From positions 1 to 44,902 of the forward strand of contig CAZYVS010000005.1 of the NCBI GenBank assembly GCA_964651655.1: DNA of 44,902 nucleotides, given 5' to 3'. The position numbers were made by a program, and so were the translations under genes. The notes under the pieces are model-generated. The model was not told where the DNA came from and did not search any database. It saw nothing but the letters and a program-made list of their open reading frames with translations. The stretch comes from an uncultured Candidatus Saccharibacteria bacterium (lineage in GTDB: Bacteria > Patescibacteriota > Minisyncoccia > Phycocordibacterales > Zambryskibacteraceae). Shown here piece after piece: positions 13,604 to 27,545 of this stretch (positions are counted from its first letter, which is position 1; the number at the start of each line of letters is the position of its first letter).

Positions 13604-14371
13604 ATGGCAAAACTTGGAACCGATCCGTACAAAGGAGTTAGAGATTTCTACCCTGAAGATATGGTCATCCAGAATTATATTTTCAACGTCTGGCGTAAAA
13701 CTGCCGAAAAATTTGGATATGTTGAATACGGCGCTTCGTTACTGGAACCAACTGAAATTTATACCGAAAAATCGGGCGCGGAGATAATTAACGAACAAAC
13801 TTTTACCTTCATGGATCGGGGCGATCGATCTGTCACCCTACGTCCGGAGATAACTCCATCGCTCGCTCGCATGGTCGCCGCGCGCCGTAGAAATTTAAAA
13901 TTCCCCTTACGCTGGTACTCAATTCCAAATTTATTCCGCTACGAACGACCGCAACGCGGAAGAAAACGCGAACATTGGCAATTAAACTGCGACCTTTTGG
14001 GTATCGCCGGTATTGAAGCGGAAAAAGAAATTATTTCTCTGATCTACACAATCATGAAGGAATTTGGAGCAAAAGATGAAGATTTTGAAATAAGAATTAA
14101 TAATTCAGACATCAATAACTTTAAAGAAATTGGGTCAAACTTGGTTTTTGACCCAGAATTGGCCAGAGGACAAACCTATTACACCGGAATAGTTTTTGAA
14201 ATCTTTGATACAAATAAAGCAAACGGGCGGGCGCTGGCCGGTGGTGGAAGATATGATAATCTTCTGGAAATGTTTGAGGCCGAACCAATCCCCGCGGTTG
14301 GCTTCGGTATGGGAGATATTACTATTCGTGACTTTCTGGAAACACATGGACTGCCATTATGCGCAAAGTAG
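13604..14371 (+). CDS. hisS: Histidyl-tRNA synthetase, catalytic core only (255 aa)
   Basis: KGVRDF, LRPEITP, FRYERPQRGRKREHWQ (motif 2), LARGQTYYTG, GGGRYD, AVGFGMG (motif 3); no C-terminal anticodon-binding domain. Confidence 0.85.
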   Translation: MAKLGTDPYKGVRDFYPEDMVIQNYIFNVWRKTAEKFGYVEYGASLLEPTEIYTEKSGAEIINEQTFTFMDRGDRSVTLRPEITPSLARMVAARRRNLKFPLRWYSIPNLFRYERPQRGRKREHWQLNCDLLGIAGIEAEKEIISLIYTIMKEFGAKDEDFEIRINNSDINNFKEIGSNLVFDPELARGQTYYTGIVFEIFDTNKANGRALAGGGRYDNLLEMFEAEPIPAVGFGMGDITIRDFLETHGLPLCAK

Positions 14372-15669: not shown

Positions 15670-17193
15670 TCAAATCCGTTCTTCAAGATATTTGAGGATG
15701 GCGTACATGGCATAAGTGTCTAGGCCACAGTAGATTTTCAAGTCGTTCATTATTTTTTCTTTTTTTTCCGAATCTTGGCCCTTCAAGACAGTCTGCATCC
15801 AAATACGTTGCGCTTGGCCGCCATCAGAAATATTAAGTTTTTTATAGCTGAATTCGGGTAAGAGGGCCGGCAGGACCAGTTTGATTGAAGCTTTTCCAAA
15901 AAAATCTTTATCCACAAACCAACCTTTGGAAAAAGGAACCATCAGATCAACCATCCTGTCGTTAACGCCGGATAAAAACTTTTCATATTTTGGATGCATT
16001 TTCCCCATTTCAATATTTCTGTTTTTTTCAAAAGTCATAAACCATGAAATAACCGATCCCTTACCGGAAAAATCGCTTTCGAGGTGTTTAAGAAGCGATA
16101 GTGTCGGGTCGCTGTTTTTTGTATGCAAAAATTCTTTGTGCGTCAACTTGCCTCCCGGTTTATCCAGAATATGAAGAGAATATTGAAAAGGCACTTGCTG
16201 ATACGGCCGATAGCCGTCAAAGACCGGTATGACGCCAGCCATCGTTTCATAATCTAAAAAATGCAACGGGTATCTTAAAGCATTAATAAAATTGGCAATT
16301 TCTTCTTTATTAATATGCTGGGTTCCGGATTTCATGGCTTCCACTTGTCGCAATTGTTTTTCTGTCAGCGGACCATCGAGCGGAATTTCGTCTAAAAGTT
16401 CAATGCCGTTATCTTCAAGCCAGGCAAGCGTTTTCGGATCGGAACTGTAAAGTTTATAAATACTGTAACGAGGCAATTTTCCTTTAATCGCCTGAAAAAT
16501 TTCAAGCCACTCTTCCAAAGTCTCGCCACCATGCGTAAGATGGCGCGGAGAGATATCGGGCATCTGTTTTTCCTGAAGAATCTTAAACGCTTTTTTGATA
16601 TTTTCGCGTGTTTCTTTAAGACTCTCGCGCACCTCATCGGTCACATCCGATTTTTCACTAATGCCGGCGGGATCAATTTCTCCGCGCTTGATATATTTGT
16701 TGTTCACATGAAGAACATGCATATGGCGCACGATCAGCCCCGCATCCTCCAGCACAATGGTTTGAAAAGCCAAATCGGGAATATGCTCCGGTTTAACACT
16801 GGTAGAGGACTTGATTTCATATAAATCATAAACTTTATCATCCACTCTTTCCAAAACATCAAAAATGGATGTAATATTATTTGCTTCAACTCTGCCCTGT
16901 AAAATAACTTTCGTTCCTTTCTTGATTTCCTGCATTGTAAGATCAGGTAGAGCGTAATATCGAGTGCCACTGAAAACCTGCTTGCCGGCAGGCAGGTCGC
17001 TATCATTTTTATAGCCAAGCTTAACGGCTTTGGGAAAAAGTTTTTCTGCGTATTGTTCAAAGAGCGTTCCTTCGTCAAAAAGCGCTTGCAGTTCTTCGTC
17101 CGGCAAAGGTAATTTATCTTTATCGTACTTCTTGAGCCACAGCCATGCCGGATGTTTCAGAAACATCATAAACTCTGATTTTGATATAACCAT
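15670..17193 (-). CDS. DUF2779 domain protein (N-terminal PD-(D/E)XK-like, C-terminal RNase H-like)
   Basis: FDVL...YEIKSS, DLAFQ, HFLDYET, QVPFQYSLH, YCGLDT motifs. Confidence 0.85.
   Translation of the reverse strand: MVISKSEFMMFLKHPAWLWLKKYDKDKLPLPDEELQALFDEGTLFEQYAEKLFPKAVKLGYKNDSDLPAGKQVFSGTRYYALPDLTMQEIKKGTKVILQGRVEANNITSIFDVLERVDDKVYDLYEIKSSTSVKPEHIPDLAFQTIVLEDAGLIVRHMHVLHVNNKYIKRGEIDPAGISEKSDVTDEVRESLKETRENIKKAFKILQEKQMPDISPRHLTHGGETLEEWLEIFQAIKGKLPRYSIYKLYSSDPKTLAWLEDNGIELLDEIPLDGPLTEKQLRQVEAMKSGTQHINKEEIANFINALRYPLHFLDYETMAGVIPVFDGYRPYQQVPFQYSLHILDKPGGKLTHKEFLHTKNSDPTLSLLKHLESDFSGKGSVISWFMTFEKNRNIEMGKMHPKYEKFLSGVNDRMVDLMVPFSKGWFVDKDFFGKASIKLVLPALLPEFSYKKLNISDGGQAQRIWMQTVLKGQDSEKKEKIMNDLKIYCGLDTYAMYAILKYLEERI
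16976..16997. repeat. In-frame palindromic element (family C) in the DUF2779 gene
   Basis: acctgcttgccggcaggcaggt, 22-bp palindrome with one mismatch, encodes LPAGKQ. Confidence 0.75.
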
Positions 17194-17252
17194 TATCTCT
17201 ATAATACTATAAAATTAAGATTTTTAGCCATATTTTACAGGCCTCCAAATCC

Positions 17253-17281
17253 TTGACATCACAATAGATAAGTGATAGGAT
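17253..17281 (+). promoter_or_regulatory. Strong sigma70 promoter
   Basis: TTGACA-17 nt-TAGGAT with extended -10 TG; same hexamers as the rpoB promoter. Confidence 0.75.
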
Positions 17282-17284
17282 GGA

Positions 17285-17562
17285 GGTGGATAAATCGACC
17301 GCTGTGACATTCGCCGTCACAAATGTCGCAGGACAGGTCGTACGAGGCCAAATCGGTTTTGTAGATGGAAAACATCTGCAAGCAATCAGCGAGTGCTAGA
17401 TATCGCTGCCTGAATCCGATTTGAAAAAACGTGGTGAGCCTCCCCACATTCCTAGATATTGCACACTGGATAACTAAGCTGCAATCCGGTGCAATCTTCT
17501 GGGGCTTGCAAGGGATGTGGTATTGGTACTAATCTAGCTGCCAGTCCACGTCCCATTTCCAC
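17285..17562 (+). ncRNA. Putative multi-domain structured non-coding RNA of unknown class
   Basis: Nine or more nested helices forming three branched domains between a promoter and a terminator; no long ORF. Confidence 0.65.
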
Positions 17563-17563
17563 A

Positions 17564-17595
17564 AGGCTCGACAATGTTGTCGGCCTTTTTATTTT
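17564..17595 (+). terminator. Intrinsic terminator
   Basis: aggc(t)cgaca/tgtcg-gcct stem followed by TTTTTT. Confidence 0.8.
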
Positions 17596-17692
17596 TTAAT
17601 TGATATTCCATTTACATAATAAAAAAGCTGTAGCATATTTATTATGTATGTTAAACGCCGAGTGTTTAACAATTTTGAGTGTTTAATAATTT

Positions 17693-18898
17693 TTAGTATC
17701 CTCGGAGCCTGTTGATTTTTTCATGCTGGCGAATTTTTTCGTGCGCTTTGGCCTCTATTTGGCGAATGCGTTCGCGAGTGACGCCAAACACTCTACCGAC
17801 TTCTTCCAGCGTGTGAGTATAACCGTCCAGGAGCCCGTGGCGCATTTCCAAAATTTTTCTCTCCTTGGGAGGCAAATCGTCCAAAATTTCGCGCACCTGG
17901 TCGGACACAATGCGTCTCGAAGAATCCTGGTCCGGAGAGAGAATCTTGTCATCCGCCAGAAAATCGCCCAATTTGCTCTTGTCATCCTCGCCGTCACTGC
18001 CTACGGGGCTTTCCAGAGAAACTGTGGATTGGTCAATCTTTTCGATCTGGTAAATTTTTTCCACATCCAAATTCATCTCCAGGGCAATCTCTTCTTGCAA
18101 AGGGTCCCTGCCAAGATCTTGAGTCAAGCGTCGGACGACTTGTTTATATTTAGCGATGGTTTCCACCATATGCACCGGCACGCGAATGGTGCGCGATTGA
18201 TCAGCCAAAGCGCGAGTGATGGCTTGCCTGATCCACCAAGTGGCATAGGTGGAAAATTTGAAACCCTTGGTCCAATCAAATTTCTCCACCGCCTTGTGCA
18301 AACCTAAATTTCCTTCTTGAATTAAATCAAGCAAAGTAAGATCAGGGCTTCTATTAGCGTACTTTTTGGCAATTGAAACCACTAGACGAAGATTGGCTTT
18401 CATCAATAAACTTTTAGCATCTTCGTCTCCGTTCTCAATTCTTTTGGCAAGTTCCTTTTCCATCGAGCCGGCGATCAGCGGATATTGTCCGATTTCTCTC
18501 AAATACATTTGAATCGAATCGTAGGATGAATCGCCTCTTGAGTATGTATAATGTTTATCGGTTTCTTCTGGAGGCATTTCCAATAATCCCCCACCCTCCA
18601 AAATATCGACACCGAGGATGCGGAGTTTTTCATACAACTCATCAAGAAATATGATATTAGTTTCTATTGTCGGAAATTCTTTCAAGATTTCATCGTAAGT
18701 GACAAAACCGCGCTCTTTGCCACGCGCGATCAGGCGTTCCGTTCTAAGCGCCTCATCAATCTTCTTCTTAATCGGCGACTTGGTCTTGGCCTTCTGTTTC
18801 TTGGTTGCTTTATGAATCTTTTTTTTAGTCAGTTTTCTTCTGGACTGTTTTTTAACAGTCTTTTTGAATTTCTTGTTTTTTTGTTTGTTTTTTTTCAT
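17693..18898 (-). CDS. rpoD: RNA polymerase primary sigma factor
   Basis: Region 1.1 RGFVTYDEI, 1.2 DSIQMYLREIG, 2.x ANLRLVVSIAKKY and KFSTYATWWIRQAI, 4.2 TLEEVGRVFGVTRERIRQIE; Lys-rich N-terminal extension. Confidence 0.98.
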   Translation of the reverse strand: MKKNKQKNKKFKKTVKKQSRRKLTKKKIHKATKKQKAKTKSPIKKKIDEALRTERLIARGKERGFVTYDEILKEFPTIETNIIFLDELYEKLRILGVDILEGGGLLEMPPEETDKHYTYSRGDSSYDSIQMYLREIGQYPLIAGSMEKELAKRIENGDEDAKSLLMKANLRLVVSIAKKYANRSPDLTLLDLIQEGNLGLHKAVEKFDWTKGFKFSTYATWWIRQAITRALADQSRTIRVPVHMVETIAKYKQVVRRLTQDLGRDPLQEEIALEMNLDVEKIYQIEKIDQSTVSLESPVGSDGEDDKSKLGDFLADDKILSPDQDSSRRIVSDQVREILDDLPPKERKILEMRHGLLDGYTHTLEEVGRVFGVTRERIRQIEAKAHEKIRQHEKINRLRGY

Positions 18899-27517: not shown

Positions 27518-27545
27518 ATCCTATCAGAGCCCTATTTCTTGTCAA
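27518..27545 (-). promoter_or_regulatory. rpoB promoter
   Basis: Minus strand TTGACA-16 nt-TAGGAT with extended -10 TG. Confidence 0.7.

What the first reader, a model, noticed from the sequence alone, without database searches (positions are those of the whole stretch)
17253..17595. Large orphan structured RNA with its own promoter and terminator
Seen: TTGACA-17-TAGGAT (same hexamers and TG extension as the rpoB promoter), about 280 nt without a substantial ORF, then an intrinsic terminator. It pairs into three branched domains. D1: cgacc 17296/ggtcg 17336 enclosing tgtgac/gtcaca and tgtc/gaca hairpins. D2: caaatcgg 17349/ccgatttg 17416 enclosing ttgtagatg/catctgcaa (GAAAA loop) and cagcga/tcgctg. 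D3: acgtgg 17429/ccacgt 17546 enclosing ccacattcct/agggatgtgg and attgcac/gtgcaat. The ends may also pair (ggaggtgg/ccatttcc), and gagcct 17436 could pair with gggctt 17502 as a pseudoknot. It lacks the hallmarks I know for RNase P, tmRNA, SRP, group I/II introns and common riboswitches. Inference: a previously undescribed ncRNA class.
Basis: partly seen in the sequence, partly recalled or inferred. Interest (0 to 1): 0.85.

Follow-up and report, generated by a model that had tools for sequence, protein, structure and literature searches.

The report
New structured RNA gene in Zambryskibacteria
This is a real gene with its own promoter and terminator for a ~300-nt folded non-coding RNA that matches no known RNA family, seen so far in only one small branch of the ultra-small groundwater bacteria Zambryskibacteria; its function is unknown.

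Summary
The finding holds. Window 17253-17597 (+) carries a near-consensus extended -10 promoter, about 300 nt with no conserved ORF, and an intrinsic terminator. The host is a Candidatus Zambryskibacteria (Patescibacteria/CPR) genome.

I found six more distinct homologues, one of them cut by a contig end. All lie antisense in the same rpoD-to-DUF2779 spacer. Pairwise identity is only 47-75%, yet 89% of pair cells stay paired (43.5% or less when partners are slid). 41 of 86 pairs show changes on both sides.

The conserved fold is an extended hairpin P1, a three-way junction (P2, P2a, P2b), an optional P3, and long hairpins P4 and P5. Its D3 outer helices, end pairing and pseudoknot are not conserved.

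The only invariant runs of 5 nt or more are GCUAGAU (P2b loop) and AUCUAGC (P5 loop). They are exact reverse complements, so a 7-bp kissing loop is likely.

Rfam 15 and ARAGORN find nothing, and tests for RNase P RNA, tmRNA, 6S RNA, SRP RNA and riboswitches fail. Sister lineages have an empty site, which fits a single gain in one subclade.

Function is unknown. My best guess is a trans-acting, protein-binding or otherwise structure-dependent RNA. This is a new family, apparently narrow, and of moderate interest.

The parts
17232..17259 (-). Divergent promoter-like site (ATGTCA-16-TAAAAT) for DUF2779. Its -35 overlaps the RNA promoter's -35. The adjoining block 17219-17237 (TAAAATATGGCTAAAAATC on the - strand) is nearly invariant in all RNA-bearing loci.
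17253..17281 (+). RNA promoter: -35 TTGACA (17253-17258), 17-nt spacer, TG extension (17274-17275), -10 TAGGAT (17276-17281). The start of transcription is inferred at about G17288.
   Evidence: conserved as CTTGACAT...TGATAGGAT/TGATAGAAT/TGATAAAAT in 7 loci; same hexamers as the rpoB promoter
17288..17295 (+). Single-stranded 5' tail (GGAUAAAU; consensus AGACAAAU).
17296..17340 (+). P1: extended hairpin. It is closed by CGACC/GGUCG, with inner stem CUGUGACAUU/AAUGUCGCAG and a loop carrying the conserved (C/U)(C/U)GUCACA.
   Evidence: every homologue folds on its own into this hairpin with different stem sequences
17349..17423 (+). P2 domain, a three-way junction. P2 is CAAAUCGG 17349-17356 / CCGAUUUG 17416-17423. 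P2a is 17359-17367 / 17373-17381. P2b is 17387-17392 / 17403-17408.
   Evidence: helices 4, 5 and 6: 98%, 93% and 98% of cells paired; 2, 9 and 5 pairs changed on both sides
17395..17401 (+). Invariant GCUAGAU in the P2b loop; 5' strand of the proposed kissing loop.
17424..17430 (+). A-rich linker (AAAAAAC); variable in sequence among homologues.
17431..17447 (+). P3: optional small hairpin GUGG/CCAC. The whole segment is absent in L081, L091 and L093.
   Evidence: (helix 7)
17451..17503 (+). P4: long interrupted hairpin. Its three stems are CCUAGA/UCUGGG, AUUGCAC/GUGCAAU and UGGAU/AUCCG.
   Evidence: helix 8: 87% of cells paired, 6 pairs changed on both sides
17345..17348 (+). Tentative long-range helix, 5' strand AGGC, pairing with GCUU 17504-17507. 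Support is weak, and it competes with an extension of P2 in four homologues.
   Evidence: helix 3 (70.8% paired)
17512..17554 (+). P5: long hairpin. Its stems are GGGAUGUGG/CCACGUCCC and AUUGGUA/UGCCAGU, with a 10-nt loop.
   Evidence: helix 9: 95.8% of cells paired, 9 pairs changed on both sides
17532..17538 (+). Invariant AUCUAGC in the P5 loop; 3' strand of the proposed kissing loop and the exact reverse complement of 17395-17401.
17565..17597 (+). Intrinsic terminator: GGC(U)CGAC / GUCGGCC stem (17565-17585), then UUUUUAUUUUUU.
   Evidence: helix 10 (95% paired, 2 pairs changed on both sides)

Best explanation
Window 17253-17597 (+) is a stand-alone gene for a structured non-coding RNA of about 300 nt, belonging to a family not described before.

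**Shown**
- It is flanked by a near-consensus sigma-70-type extended -10 promoter and an intrinsic terminator; transcription itself has not been observed.
- It lies antisense between rpoD and the DUF2779 nuclease-like gene of a Candidatus Zambryskibacteria genome.
- Its fold is conserved under selection: P1 extended hairpin, P2 three-way junction with P2a and P2b, optional P3, and long hairpins P4 and P5.
- It has no conserved ORF.
- No downstream gene lies on its strand, so it is not a leader or riboswitch.
- Sister lineages have rpoD abutting DUF2779. The RNA-bearing loci form one clade, which fits a single gain of the cassette, including a new outward promoter for DUF2779.

**Inferred**
- The invariant, mutually complementary heptamers in the P2b and P5 loops form a 7-bp kissing loop. 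This would clamp the 5' and 3' halves into a compact tertiary fold.
- The RNA acts in trans through that fold, most likely as a protein-binding scaffold or decoy (RNP), rather than through simple antisense pairing.

My confidence differs by claim. That this is a real structured ncRNA gene of a new family: about 0.9. The kissing loop: about 0.6. The protein-binding mode of action: about 0.3.
For: **Transcription signals**
- Promoter and terminator are present.
- The promoter is conserved in 7 loci and shares its hexamers with the rpoB promoter.

**Stability**
- Fold stability is z = -5.8 on the + strand against -4.0 on the - strand.

**Homologues**
- Six further distinct homologues: L001 (= L086, L087), L081, L082 (= L083), L091, L093, and L092, which is partial.
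- The identical RNA occurs in five further sequencing runs.

**Covariation on A7**
- 89.0% of cells are paired, against 80.6% in shuffles and 32-44% with partners slid.
- 41 of 86 pairs changed on both sides, against 19 in shuffles and 8 or fewer when slid.
- The covariation score is 0.350 against 0.205 (0 of 500 shuffles reach it).

**Strand**
- 47 G-U cells against 14 A-C cells point to the + strand.

**Independent folding**
- Each homologue folded alone reproduces the same domains.

**Kissing loop**
- The only invariant runs of 5 nt or more in an alignment with 47-75% pairwise identity are GCUAGAU and AUCUAGC.
- Both sit in loops closed by covarying stems, and all 42 cells are complementary.

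**Exclusions**
- No conserved ORF on either strand.
- No Rfam family and no tmRNA.

**Context**
- Empty sites occur in close relatives.
- RNA-bearing loci are monophyletic in a DUF2779 NJ tree.
Against: - No transcript data were available.
- There are only seven related sequences, and alignment A7 was fitted to the model, so the pair counts lean towards the structure. The shuffle counts are not probabilities.
- The kissing loop cannot covary because both strands are invariant. A shared ligand or intermolecular pairing would explain them equally well.
- Nothing ties the RNA to a protein partner; the mode of action is inference by analogy.
- Distribution beyond this subclade is untested. The genome scan fetched only rpoD neighbourhoods. 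The metagenome collection does not even hold the window's own contig.
- A relocated, very divergent housekeeping RNA is therefore not formally excluded.
Confidence: 0.6

Rival explanations
1. It is a base-pairing regulatory sRNA. The conserved unpaired segments would be seeds that pair with target mRNAs, and the rest would serve as a stability scaffold. Candidate seeds are the 5' tail AGACAAAU, the P1 loop (C/U)(C/U)GUCACA and the junction CCUGAAU.
For: It has a stand-alone promoter and a Rho-independent terminator, as classical sRNAs do. Short single-stranded motifs are conserved.
Against: About 300 nt with five covarying helical domains and a probable tertiary contact is far more structure than seed-type sRNAs need. 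No target was identified. The one 12-nt similarity to rpoD is same-sense in the two transcripts, not antisense. Chaperones such as Hfq were not examined.
Confidence: 0.18
2. It is a ribozyme or a self-assembling RNA. The complementary loops would pair between molecules, head to tail, to build dimers or rings, or the compact fold would carry a catalytic site.
For: The fold is large and multi-domain, with strong covariation. Two invariant complementary loops contain the self-complementary core CUAG. From my own knowledge, other large orphan bacterial RNAs (ROOL, GOLLD, OLE) were recently shown to form homo-oligomers.
Against: There is no similarity to any known ribozyme or to those RNAs in Rfam. 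No substrate or cleavage site is evident. Intramolecular pairing is sterically plausible and simpler.
Confidence: 0.12
3. It is an accessory element of a toxin-antitoxin or defence islet, for example an RNA antitoxin or decoy. The basis is that the rpoD-DUF2779 spacer collects such cargo.
For: The same spacer holds a HicB-like gene (L081), a HepT-like toxin (L091) and other small ORFs (L012, L014, L094) in relatives.
Against: The window and L001 carry the RNA with no toxin-like gene beside it. It has no tandem repeats of the kind seen in type III antitoxin RNAs and no conserved small toxin ORF. PADLOC finds no defence system here. Inheritance looks vertical within one clade.
Confidence: 0.07
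4. It is a very divergent copy of a housekeeping RNA (RNase P RNA, tmRNA, 6S RNA or SRP RNA) that moved to this site in one subclade.
For: Some CPR RNase P RNAs fall below Rfam noise cut-offs and were found only with a lowered score threshold, according to PMC8172020. The size (about 300 nt) and the strong promoter would fit. Whether RNA-free sisters carry it elsewhere could not be tested.
Against: No such family appears even at about 9 bits on the RNA alone. ARAGORN is negative. The 5' and 3' ends do not pair (helix 1: 57%). There are no P4 consensus sequences, no T-arm or CCA end, and no rod with a central bubble. The candidate tag frame has in-frame stops in 3 homologues (reading).
Confidence: 0.05
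5. It encodes a small protein (the 37/39-codon ORF at 17280/17286-17399, or a minus-strand ORF), or it is a functionless by-product of a promoter/terminator cassette that uncouples DUF2779 from rpoD.
For: ORFs of 33-40 codons exist in the window. The cassette does supply an outward promoter for DUF2779.
Against: None of the ORFs is conserved, and indels that are not multiples of three plus stop codons break them. Compensatory changes in 41 pairs show selection on RNA pairing.
Confidence: 0.03

Closest known systems
Large or complex orphan bacterial ncRNAs found by comparative genomics (raiA, ROOL, GOLLD, OLE motif RNAs)
   Same: It is a multi-domain fold supported by covariation, with no coding potential, no obvious cis target, a lineage-restricted distribution and unknown biochemistry. 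Long-range loop contacts appear important.
   Different: There is no sequence or structure match to any of them in Rfam 15. At about 300 nt it is smaller than ROOL, GOLLD or OLE. It shows no association with prophage genes or with OLE-associated proteins. It is known so far from only one Zambryskibacteria subclade.
6S RNA / Ms1 RNA (RNA polymerase-binding sRNAs)
   Same: It is a stand-alone RNA gene with a strong housekeeping-type promoter, and it happens to lie beside rpoD.
   Different: It is not a rod with a central bubble, and the ends do not pair. There is no Rfam 6S hit. The neighbourhood to rpoD is not universal within the clade, since HepT intervenes in L091.
RNAs organised by kissing loops (lysine riboswitch L2-L3, cobalamin riboswitch L5-L13, ColE1 RNA I/RNA II)
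   Same: Two hairpin loops carry 6-7 nt of perfect complementarity that is more conserved than the stems that display them.
   Different: It has no aptamer consensus and no expression platform, and no downstream gene lies on the same strand. These resemblances come from my own knowledge; only Rfam membership was tested, and it was negative.
Divergent CPR RNase P RNA (PMC8172020)
   Same: It is a Patescibacteria RNA of about 300 nt that standard Rfam thresholds do not report.
   Different: The diverged CPR RNase P RNAs were still found with RF00010 at lowered thresholds and keep P1-P4 architecture. This RNA gives no RF00010 hit at any threshold tried and lacks P1 and P4.

Membership tests
Bacterial RNase P RNA | Match to covariance models RF00010/RF00011, even a weak one | tested here: not met
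   There is no hit at gathering thresholds, none at E<=10 on 551 nt, and none on 285 nt, where a 9.2-bit hit was listed. Homologues L091, L092 and L093 also give none.
Bacterial RNase P RNA | P1 pairing of the 5' and 3' ends, and a long-range P4 helix with the GGAAAGUCC / ACAGAA..GGCUUA consensus | tested here: not met
   End pairing holds in only 57% of cells and is no better than shuffles. The consensus strings are absent on reading the sequence. The AAUCGACC segment pairs locally within P1.
Bacterial RNase P RNA | Present once in essentially every genome of the lineage | not testable with these tools
   The RNA is absent from the syntenic site in nine close relatives. The rest of those genomes could not be searched.
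tmRNA | tRNA-like domain (acceptor stem formed by both ends, T-arm, 3' CCA end) detectable by ARAGORN or Rfam | tested here: not met
   ARAGORN finds only three tRNAs in the window. No tmRNA-family hit appears.
tmRNA | Conserved tag reading frame ending in a stop codon | tested here: not met
   The window frame GCA AGC ... GCU GCC UGA reads ASNQRVLDIAA*. The same frame hits UGA after 4 codons in L081, L091 and L093 (reading). Those changes are the compensatory changes of stem P2b.
6S RNA | About 180-200 nt rod with closing stem, central bubble and terminal stem; RF00013 match | tested here: not met
   The RNA is a string of separate hairpin domains and the ends are unpaired. There is no Rfam hit.
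SRP RNA (4.5S or large bacterial) | Domain IV (helix 8) motif; Rfam SRP clan match | tested here: not met
   No hit.
Riboswitch / T-box / ribosomal-protein leader (cis-regulatory 5' element) | Lies upstream of, and on the same strand as, the gene it controls | tested here: not met
   The terminator is followed by the 3' end of rpoD on the opposite strand. In L091 a HepT-like gene lies there instead. No riboswitch family is hit.
Type III antitoxin RNA / TIGR or CRISPR-like arrays | Tandem array of short repeats next to the cognate protein gene | tested here: not met
   There are no tandem repeats inside the RNA. No toxin or Cas/Tas gene is adjacent in the window.
Small-protein gene | Reading frame conserved among homologues | tested here: not met
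   No shared ORF on either strand in 7 homologues. Indels of 1 and 2 nt fall within the window ORF.
Structured ncRNA gene (generic) | Own promoter and terminator, conserved secondary structure with compensatory changes, strand-specific G-U pairs | tested here: met
   signals; covariation; 47 G-U against 14 A-C cells
Structured ncRNA gene (generic) | Detected transcript of the predicted size | not testable with these tools
   No transcriptome data are accessible here.

The most novel reading that the evidence does not exclude
This is a new class of complex-folded RNA specific to a lineage of ultra-small Patescibacteria. Its two invariant complementary loops would either lock a catalytic or ligand-binding core, or link copies head to tail into a multimeric RNA particle. 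It would then be a ribozyme or self-assembling RNA rather than an ordinary regulator.
Probability: 0.15. Interest if true: 0.8.

Novelty: new member of a known kind. Interest (0 to 1): 0.55.

Why it matters
Patescibacteria have tiny genomes with little spare DNA. Even so, one lineage acquired and has kept a roughly 300-nt RNA gene with a promoter as strong as that of rpoB, and its fold has been preserved through more than 50% sequence divergence.

Multi-domain RNAs with tertiary contacts are usually RNP cores, ribozymes or ligand sensors, and very few are known from uncultivated CPR bacteria.

The family is small, has clear boundaries and offers an obvious mutational handle in the two heptamers. 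That makes it a tractable target for probing, cryo-EM and metatranscriptome validation.

If it stays restricted to one subclade, it is one more lineage-specific orphan RNA, useful mainly for annotation and for Rfam.

Tried and rejected
- **Rfam.** Searched at gathering and permissive thresholds on the window, on the RNA alone and on three homologous loci. Only chance-level eukaryotic or unrelated hits appeared.
- **ARAGORN for tmRNA.** Negative.
- **BLASTN ('distant' mode) of the RNA against phage and plasmid collections.** No match.
- **Genome scan through rpoD.** Of 80 Paceibacteria-type loci, only L001 carries the RNA. The covariance model R1 finds nothing more in 94 sources.
- **Metagenome pattern scan.** The three-block pattern returned only the L001 contig. 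The pattern was probably too strict. The collection also lacks the window's own contig, so this says little about rarity.
- **Two viral-contig pattern scans.** No hits.
- **Searching the protein database with spurious ORFs from the RNA.** Considered and dropped, because gene callers called no ORF in the RNA region of any locus.
- **tmRNA-like tag frame.** Rejected because of in-frame stops in three homologues.
- **RNA-rpoD antisense site.** Rejected because the 12-nt similarity is same-sense.
- **PADLOC and NCBIfam on neighbouring genes.** No defence system. DUF2779 shows only weak Cas4/RecB-like nuclease similarity.
- **Flanks of the insertion.** No target-site duplication or terminal repeats.

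Full report
**1. What is at the coordinates**

The region lies between two genes on the minus strand. One is a 507-aa DUF2779 protein with a weak Cas4/RecB-like nuclease signature (15670-17193). The other is the primary sigma factor rpoD (17693-18898), which follows dnaG and rpoC.

On the plus strand the consensus scan finds TTGACA-17-TAGGAT with a TG extension at 17253-17281. This is the best promoter-like site in the 2 kb scanned. It also finds a terminator hairpin at 17568-17583, extendable to 17565-17585, followed by UUUUUAUUUUUU. The exact hexamer pair occurs only twice in the 44.9-kb window.

The plus-strand RNA folds at -122 kcal/mol with z = -5.8. The minus strand gives z = -4.0.

**2. 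Host and homologues**

Eighty genome loci retrieved through rpoD are all Patescibacteria. The closest are Candidatus Zambryskibacteria.

Only L001 (a Hainich groundwater MAG) carried a homologue of the RNA. I found more by walking through close DUF2779 homologues and fetching their contigs.

There are seven distinct sequences in all:
- the window itself;
- L001 (identical in L086 and L087);
- L082 (identical in L083);
- L081;
- L091;
- L093;
- L092, a 5' half cut off by a contig end.

The window's own version recurs unchanged in five further sequencing runs. Pairwise identity among the full-length RNAs is 47-75%.

The promoter (CTTGACAT ... TGATAGGAT or close variants) and the terminator with its U tract are conserved in all of them.

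**3. Conserved structure**

I built covariance model R1 from the alignment and my structure and used it to realign the seven sequences as A7. The counts on A7 are:

| Measure | Observed | Shuffled | Partners slid |
|---|---|---|---|
| Cells forming a standard pair | 89.0% | 80.6% | 32-44% |
| Pairs changed on both sides (of 86) | 41 | 19 | 8 or fewer |
| Covariation score | 0.350 | 0.205 (0 of 500 reach it) | 0.066-0.105 |

Per helix:

| Helix | Window coordinates | Cells paired | Pairs changed on both sides |
|---|---|---|---|
| P2 | 17349-56 / 17416-23 | 98% | 2 |
| P2a | 17359-67 / 17373-81 | 93% | 9 of 9 |
| P2b | 17387-92 / 17403-08 | 98% | 5 of 6 |
| P4 | 17451-17503 | 87% | 6 |
| P5 | 17512-17554 | 96% | 9 |
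| Terminator | 17565-17585 | 95% | 2 |

P1 (17296-17340) is poorly aligned by both MAFFT and the model. However, each homologue folded alone gives the same extended hairpin from different stem sequences. The loop mostly reads (C/U)(C/U)GUCACA.

P3 (17431-17447) is optional and is missing in L081, L091 and L093.

A short long-range helix, AGGC 17345-48 with GCUU 17504-07, is only weakly supported (71% paired). It competes with an extension of P2 in four homologues, so I treat it as tentative.

G-U cells outnumber A-C cells 47 to 14, which fixes the strand as plus.

Three caveats apply. There are only seven related sequences. A7 is fitted to the model. The shuffle counts are not probabilities. 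The slid-partner control and the independent single-sequence folds are the stronger arguments.

**4.

These proposals are supported:
- the D1 closing helix;
- all three D2 helices;
- attgcac/gtgcaat;
- the terminator.

These are not supported (64% of cells paired, every measure within the shuffle range):
- the two small hairpins inside D1;
- acgtgg/ccacgt and ccacattcct/agggatgtgg, whose 5' partners are simply deleted in three homologues;
- the pairing of the ends;
- the gagcct/gggctt pseudoknot.

The 3' third of the RNA is better described as two independent long hairpins, P4 and P5.

**5. A likely tertiary contact**

Across the whole alignment, only two runs of five or more columns are invariant. 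They are GCUAGAU (17395-17401), in the 10-nt loop of P2b, and AUCUAGC (17532-17538), in the 10-nt loop of P5.

They are exact reverse complements. All 42 cells are Watson-Crick, against 14-43% when slid. The stems that display them covary freely.

Two independent heptamers would be reverse complements by chance with probability 4^-7, about 6e-5. The flanks of the shared CUAG core are complementary (G...AU against AU...C) rather than identical. That fits pairing better than a common sequence-specific ligand.

I infer a 7-bp kissing loop joining the P2 domain to P5. Because nothing varies, there is no covariation proof, and intermolecular pairing is equally compatible with the data.

**6. Not coding, not cis-regulatory**

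The 37/39-codon ORF is not conserved. L001 has 1-nt and 2-nt indels inside it. No ORF on either strand is shared among the homologues.

A tmRNA-like tag frame in the window reads ASNQRVLDIAA followed by a stop. In L081, L091 and L093 it hits in-frame UGA after four codons, and those changes are exactly the compensatory changes of stem P2b.

The gene downstream of the terminator is on the other strand, so this is not a leader or riboswitch.

**7. Known families**

- Rfam 15 gives nothing at gathering thresholds except three... rather, two tRNA hits elsewhere in the window.
- Permissive searches on 551 nt and on 285 nt gave only chance hits, such as miRNA, snoRNA and lncRNA fragments. The 285-nt search listed hits down to 9.2 bits.
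- ARAGORN finds no tmRNA.
- CPR RNase P RNAs are known to be divergent, but they were still recovered with RF00010 at lowered thresholds and keep the P1-P4 core (PMC8172020). This RNA gives no such hit, its ends do not pair, and it has no P4 consensus.
- 6S RNA, SRP RNA, group I/II introns, HEARO/omega RNAs and type III antitoxin repeats also fail, either by Rfam or on their defining architecture (see the membership table).
- Literature searches returned no described Patescibacteria RNA of this kind.

**8. Genomic history**

In nine close relatives the rpoD stop codon is followed within about 12-28 nt by the DUF2779 start on the same strand. This is the empty site: L002, L010, L020, L022, L084, L085, L088-L090.

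In the RNA-bearing loci, a cassette of about 490 nt sits exactly between the stop and start codons. It consists of:
- an AT-rich spacer;
- the RNA gene in antisense orientation;
- a back-to-back promoter region whose minus-strand half (-10 TAAAAT plus the conserved ATGGCTAAAAATC) now serves DUF2779.

No target-site duplication or terminal repeats are visible.

In a DUF2779 neighbour-joining tree, the RNA-bearing loci form one clade with an empty-site sister, P0008. One nested member, L094, has a contig too short to judge. This fits a single gain followed by vertical descent.

The same spacer holds other small cargo in relatives: a HicB-like gene, a HepT-like gene and anonymous small ORFs. It is therefore a permissive spot. 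The window and L001, however, carry the RNA with no toxin-like neighbour, and PADLOC finds no defence system.

**9. Distribution**

No match turned up in phage or plasmid collections or in viral contigs. R1 found nothing in the other 85 rpoD loci.

The single metagenome scan used a strict three-block pattern and returned only the L001 contig. That collection lacks even the window's own contig, so its result says little about rarity.

The RNA is therefore known only from one Zambryskibacteria subclade. Whether empty-site genomes carry it elsewhere is untested.

**10. Mechanism**

Shown:
- a gene with strong transcription signals;
- a conserved multi-domain fold;
- no coding or cis-regulatory role.

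Inferred:
- a kissing loop compacts the molecule;
- the RNA works in trans through its three-dimensional shape.

I rank a protein-binding scaffold or decoy role first (about 0.3). This much conserved structure, with few long single strands, is typical of RNPs. Next come a seed-type regulatory sRNA (about 0.18), a ribozyme or self-assembling RNA (about 0.12), a toxin-antitoxin or defence accessory (about 0.07), a relocated divergent housekeeping RNA (about 0.05), and coding or by-product readings (about 0.03).

**11. Verdict**

This is an undescribed structured ncRNA family with good comparative support and a striking pair of invariant complementary loops.

Noticed in passing
window 17194-17692; L012:4071-4634; L014:4068-4628; L081:1202-2500; L091:1-1038; L094:1-481: The spacer between the rpoD stop and the DUF2779 start is a variable islet. 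It is empty (12-28 nt) in nine relatives. Others hold the RNA gene, a small ORF with its own promoter and terminator (L012), a small ORF on the other strand (L014), a HicB-like gene plus an 89-aa ORF (L081), a HepT-like toxin (L091) or a 70-aa ORF (L094).
   Followed up: partly
L081:1540-1680: Next to the RNA promoter, L081 keeps a duplicated remnant of the DUF2779 5' end that contains a stop codon (ATGGTCATATCCAAATAAGAATTCATGATGTT). The HicB-like cargo then begins. This shows a later insertion inside the start of DUF2779.
   Followed up: no
window 27518-27545 (-): The promoter-like site in front of rpoB is TTGACA-16-TGATAGGAT. It is the only other exact match in the window to the RNA promoter's hexamers and TG extension.
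   Followed up: yes
window 17219-17245: A block upstream of the RNA's -35 is nearly invariant in all seven RNA-bearing loci. Read on the minus strand it is TAAAATATGGCTAAAAATC, which is the -10 and 5' UTR of DUF2779. Its short ATG-led frame is not conserved as protein.
   Followed up: partly
window 17583-17693: Between the RNA terminator and the rpoD stop lie AT-rich inverted repeats (17583-17648) and a 17-nt tandem repeat, GAGTGTTTAACAATTTT x2 (17660-17693). They may be the rpoD terminator or a scar of the insertion.
   Followed up: no
window 17344-17355 and 17744-17755: A 12-nt inverted DNA repeat (11 of 12) links the RNA (GAGGCCAAATCG) with the 3' part of the rpoD coding sequence. Because the two genes converge, the two transcripts carry the same sense here, so this is not an antisense site.
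   Followed up: partly
window 13604-14371 (+): The HisRS-like ORF is only 255 aa and overlaps the start of the following 191-aa RNase H-like exonuclease gene. Relatives have 254-292 aa versions, and L088 has a 130-aa piece. This is short for a histidyl-tRNA synthetase.
   Followed up: no
L095-L099: The window's RNA and DUF2779 protein recur with identical sequence in five independent runs (SRR12113383, 385, 420, 424, 430). The organism is therefore recurrent at its site.
   Followed up: yes
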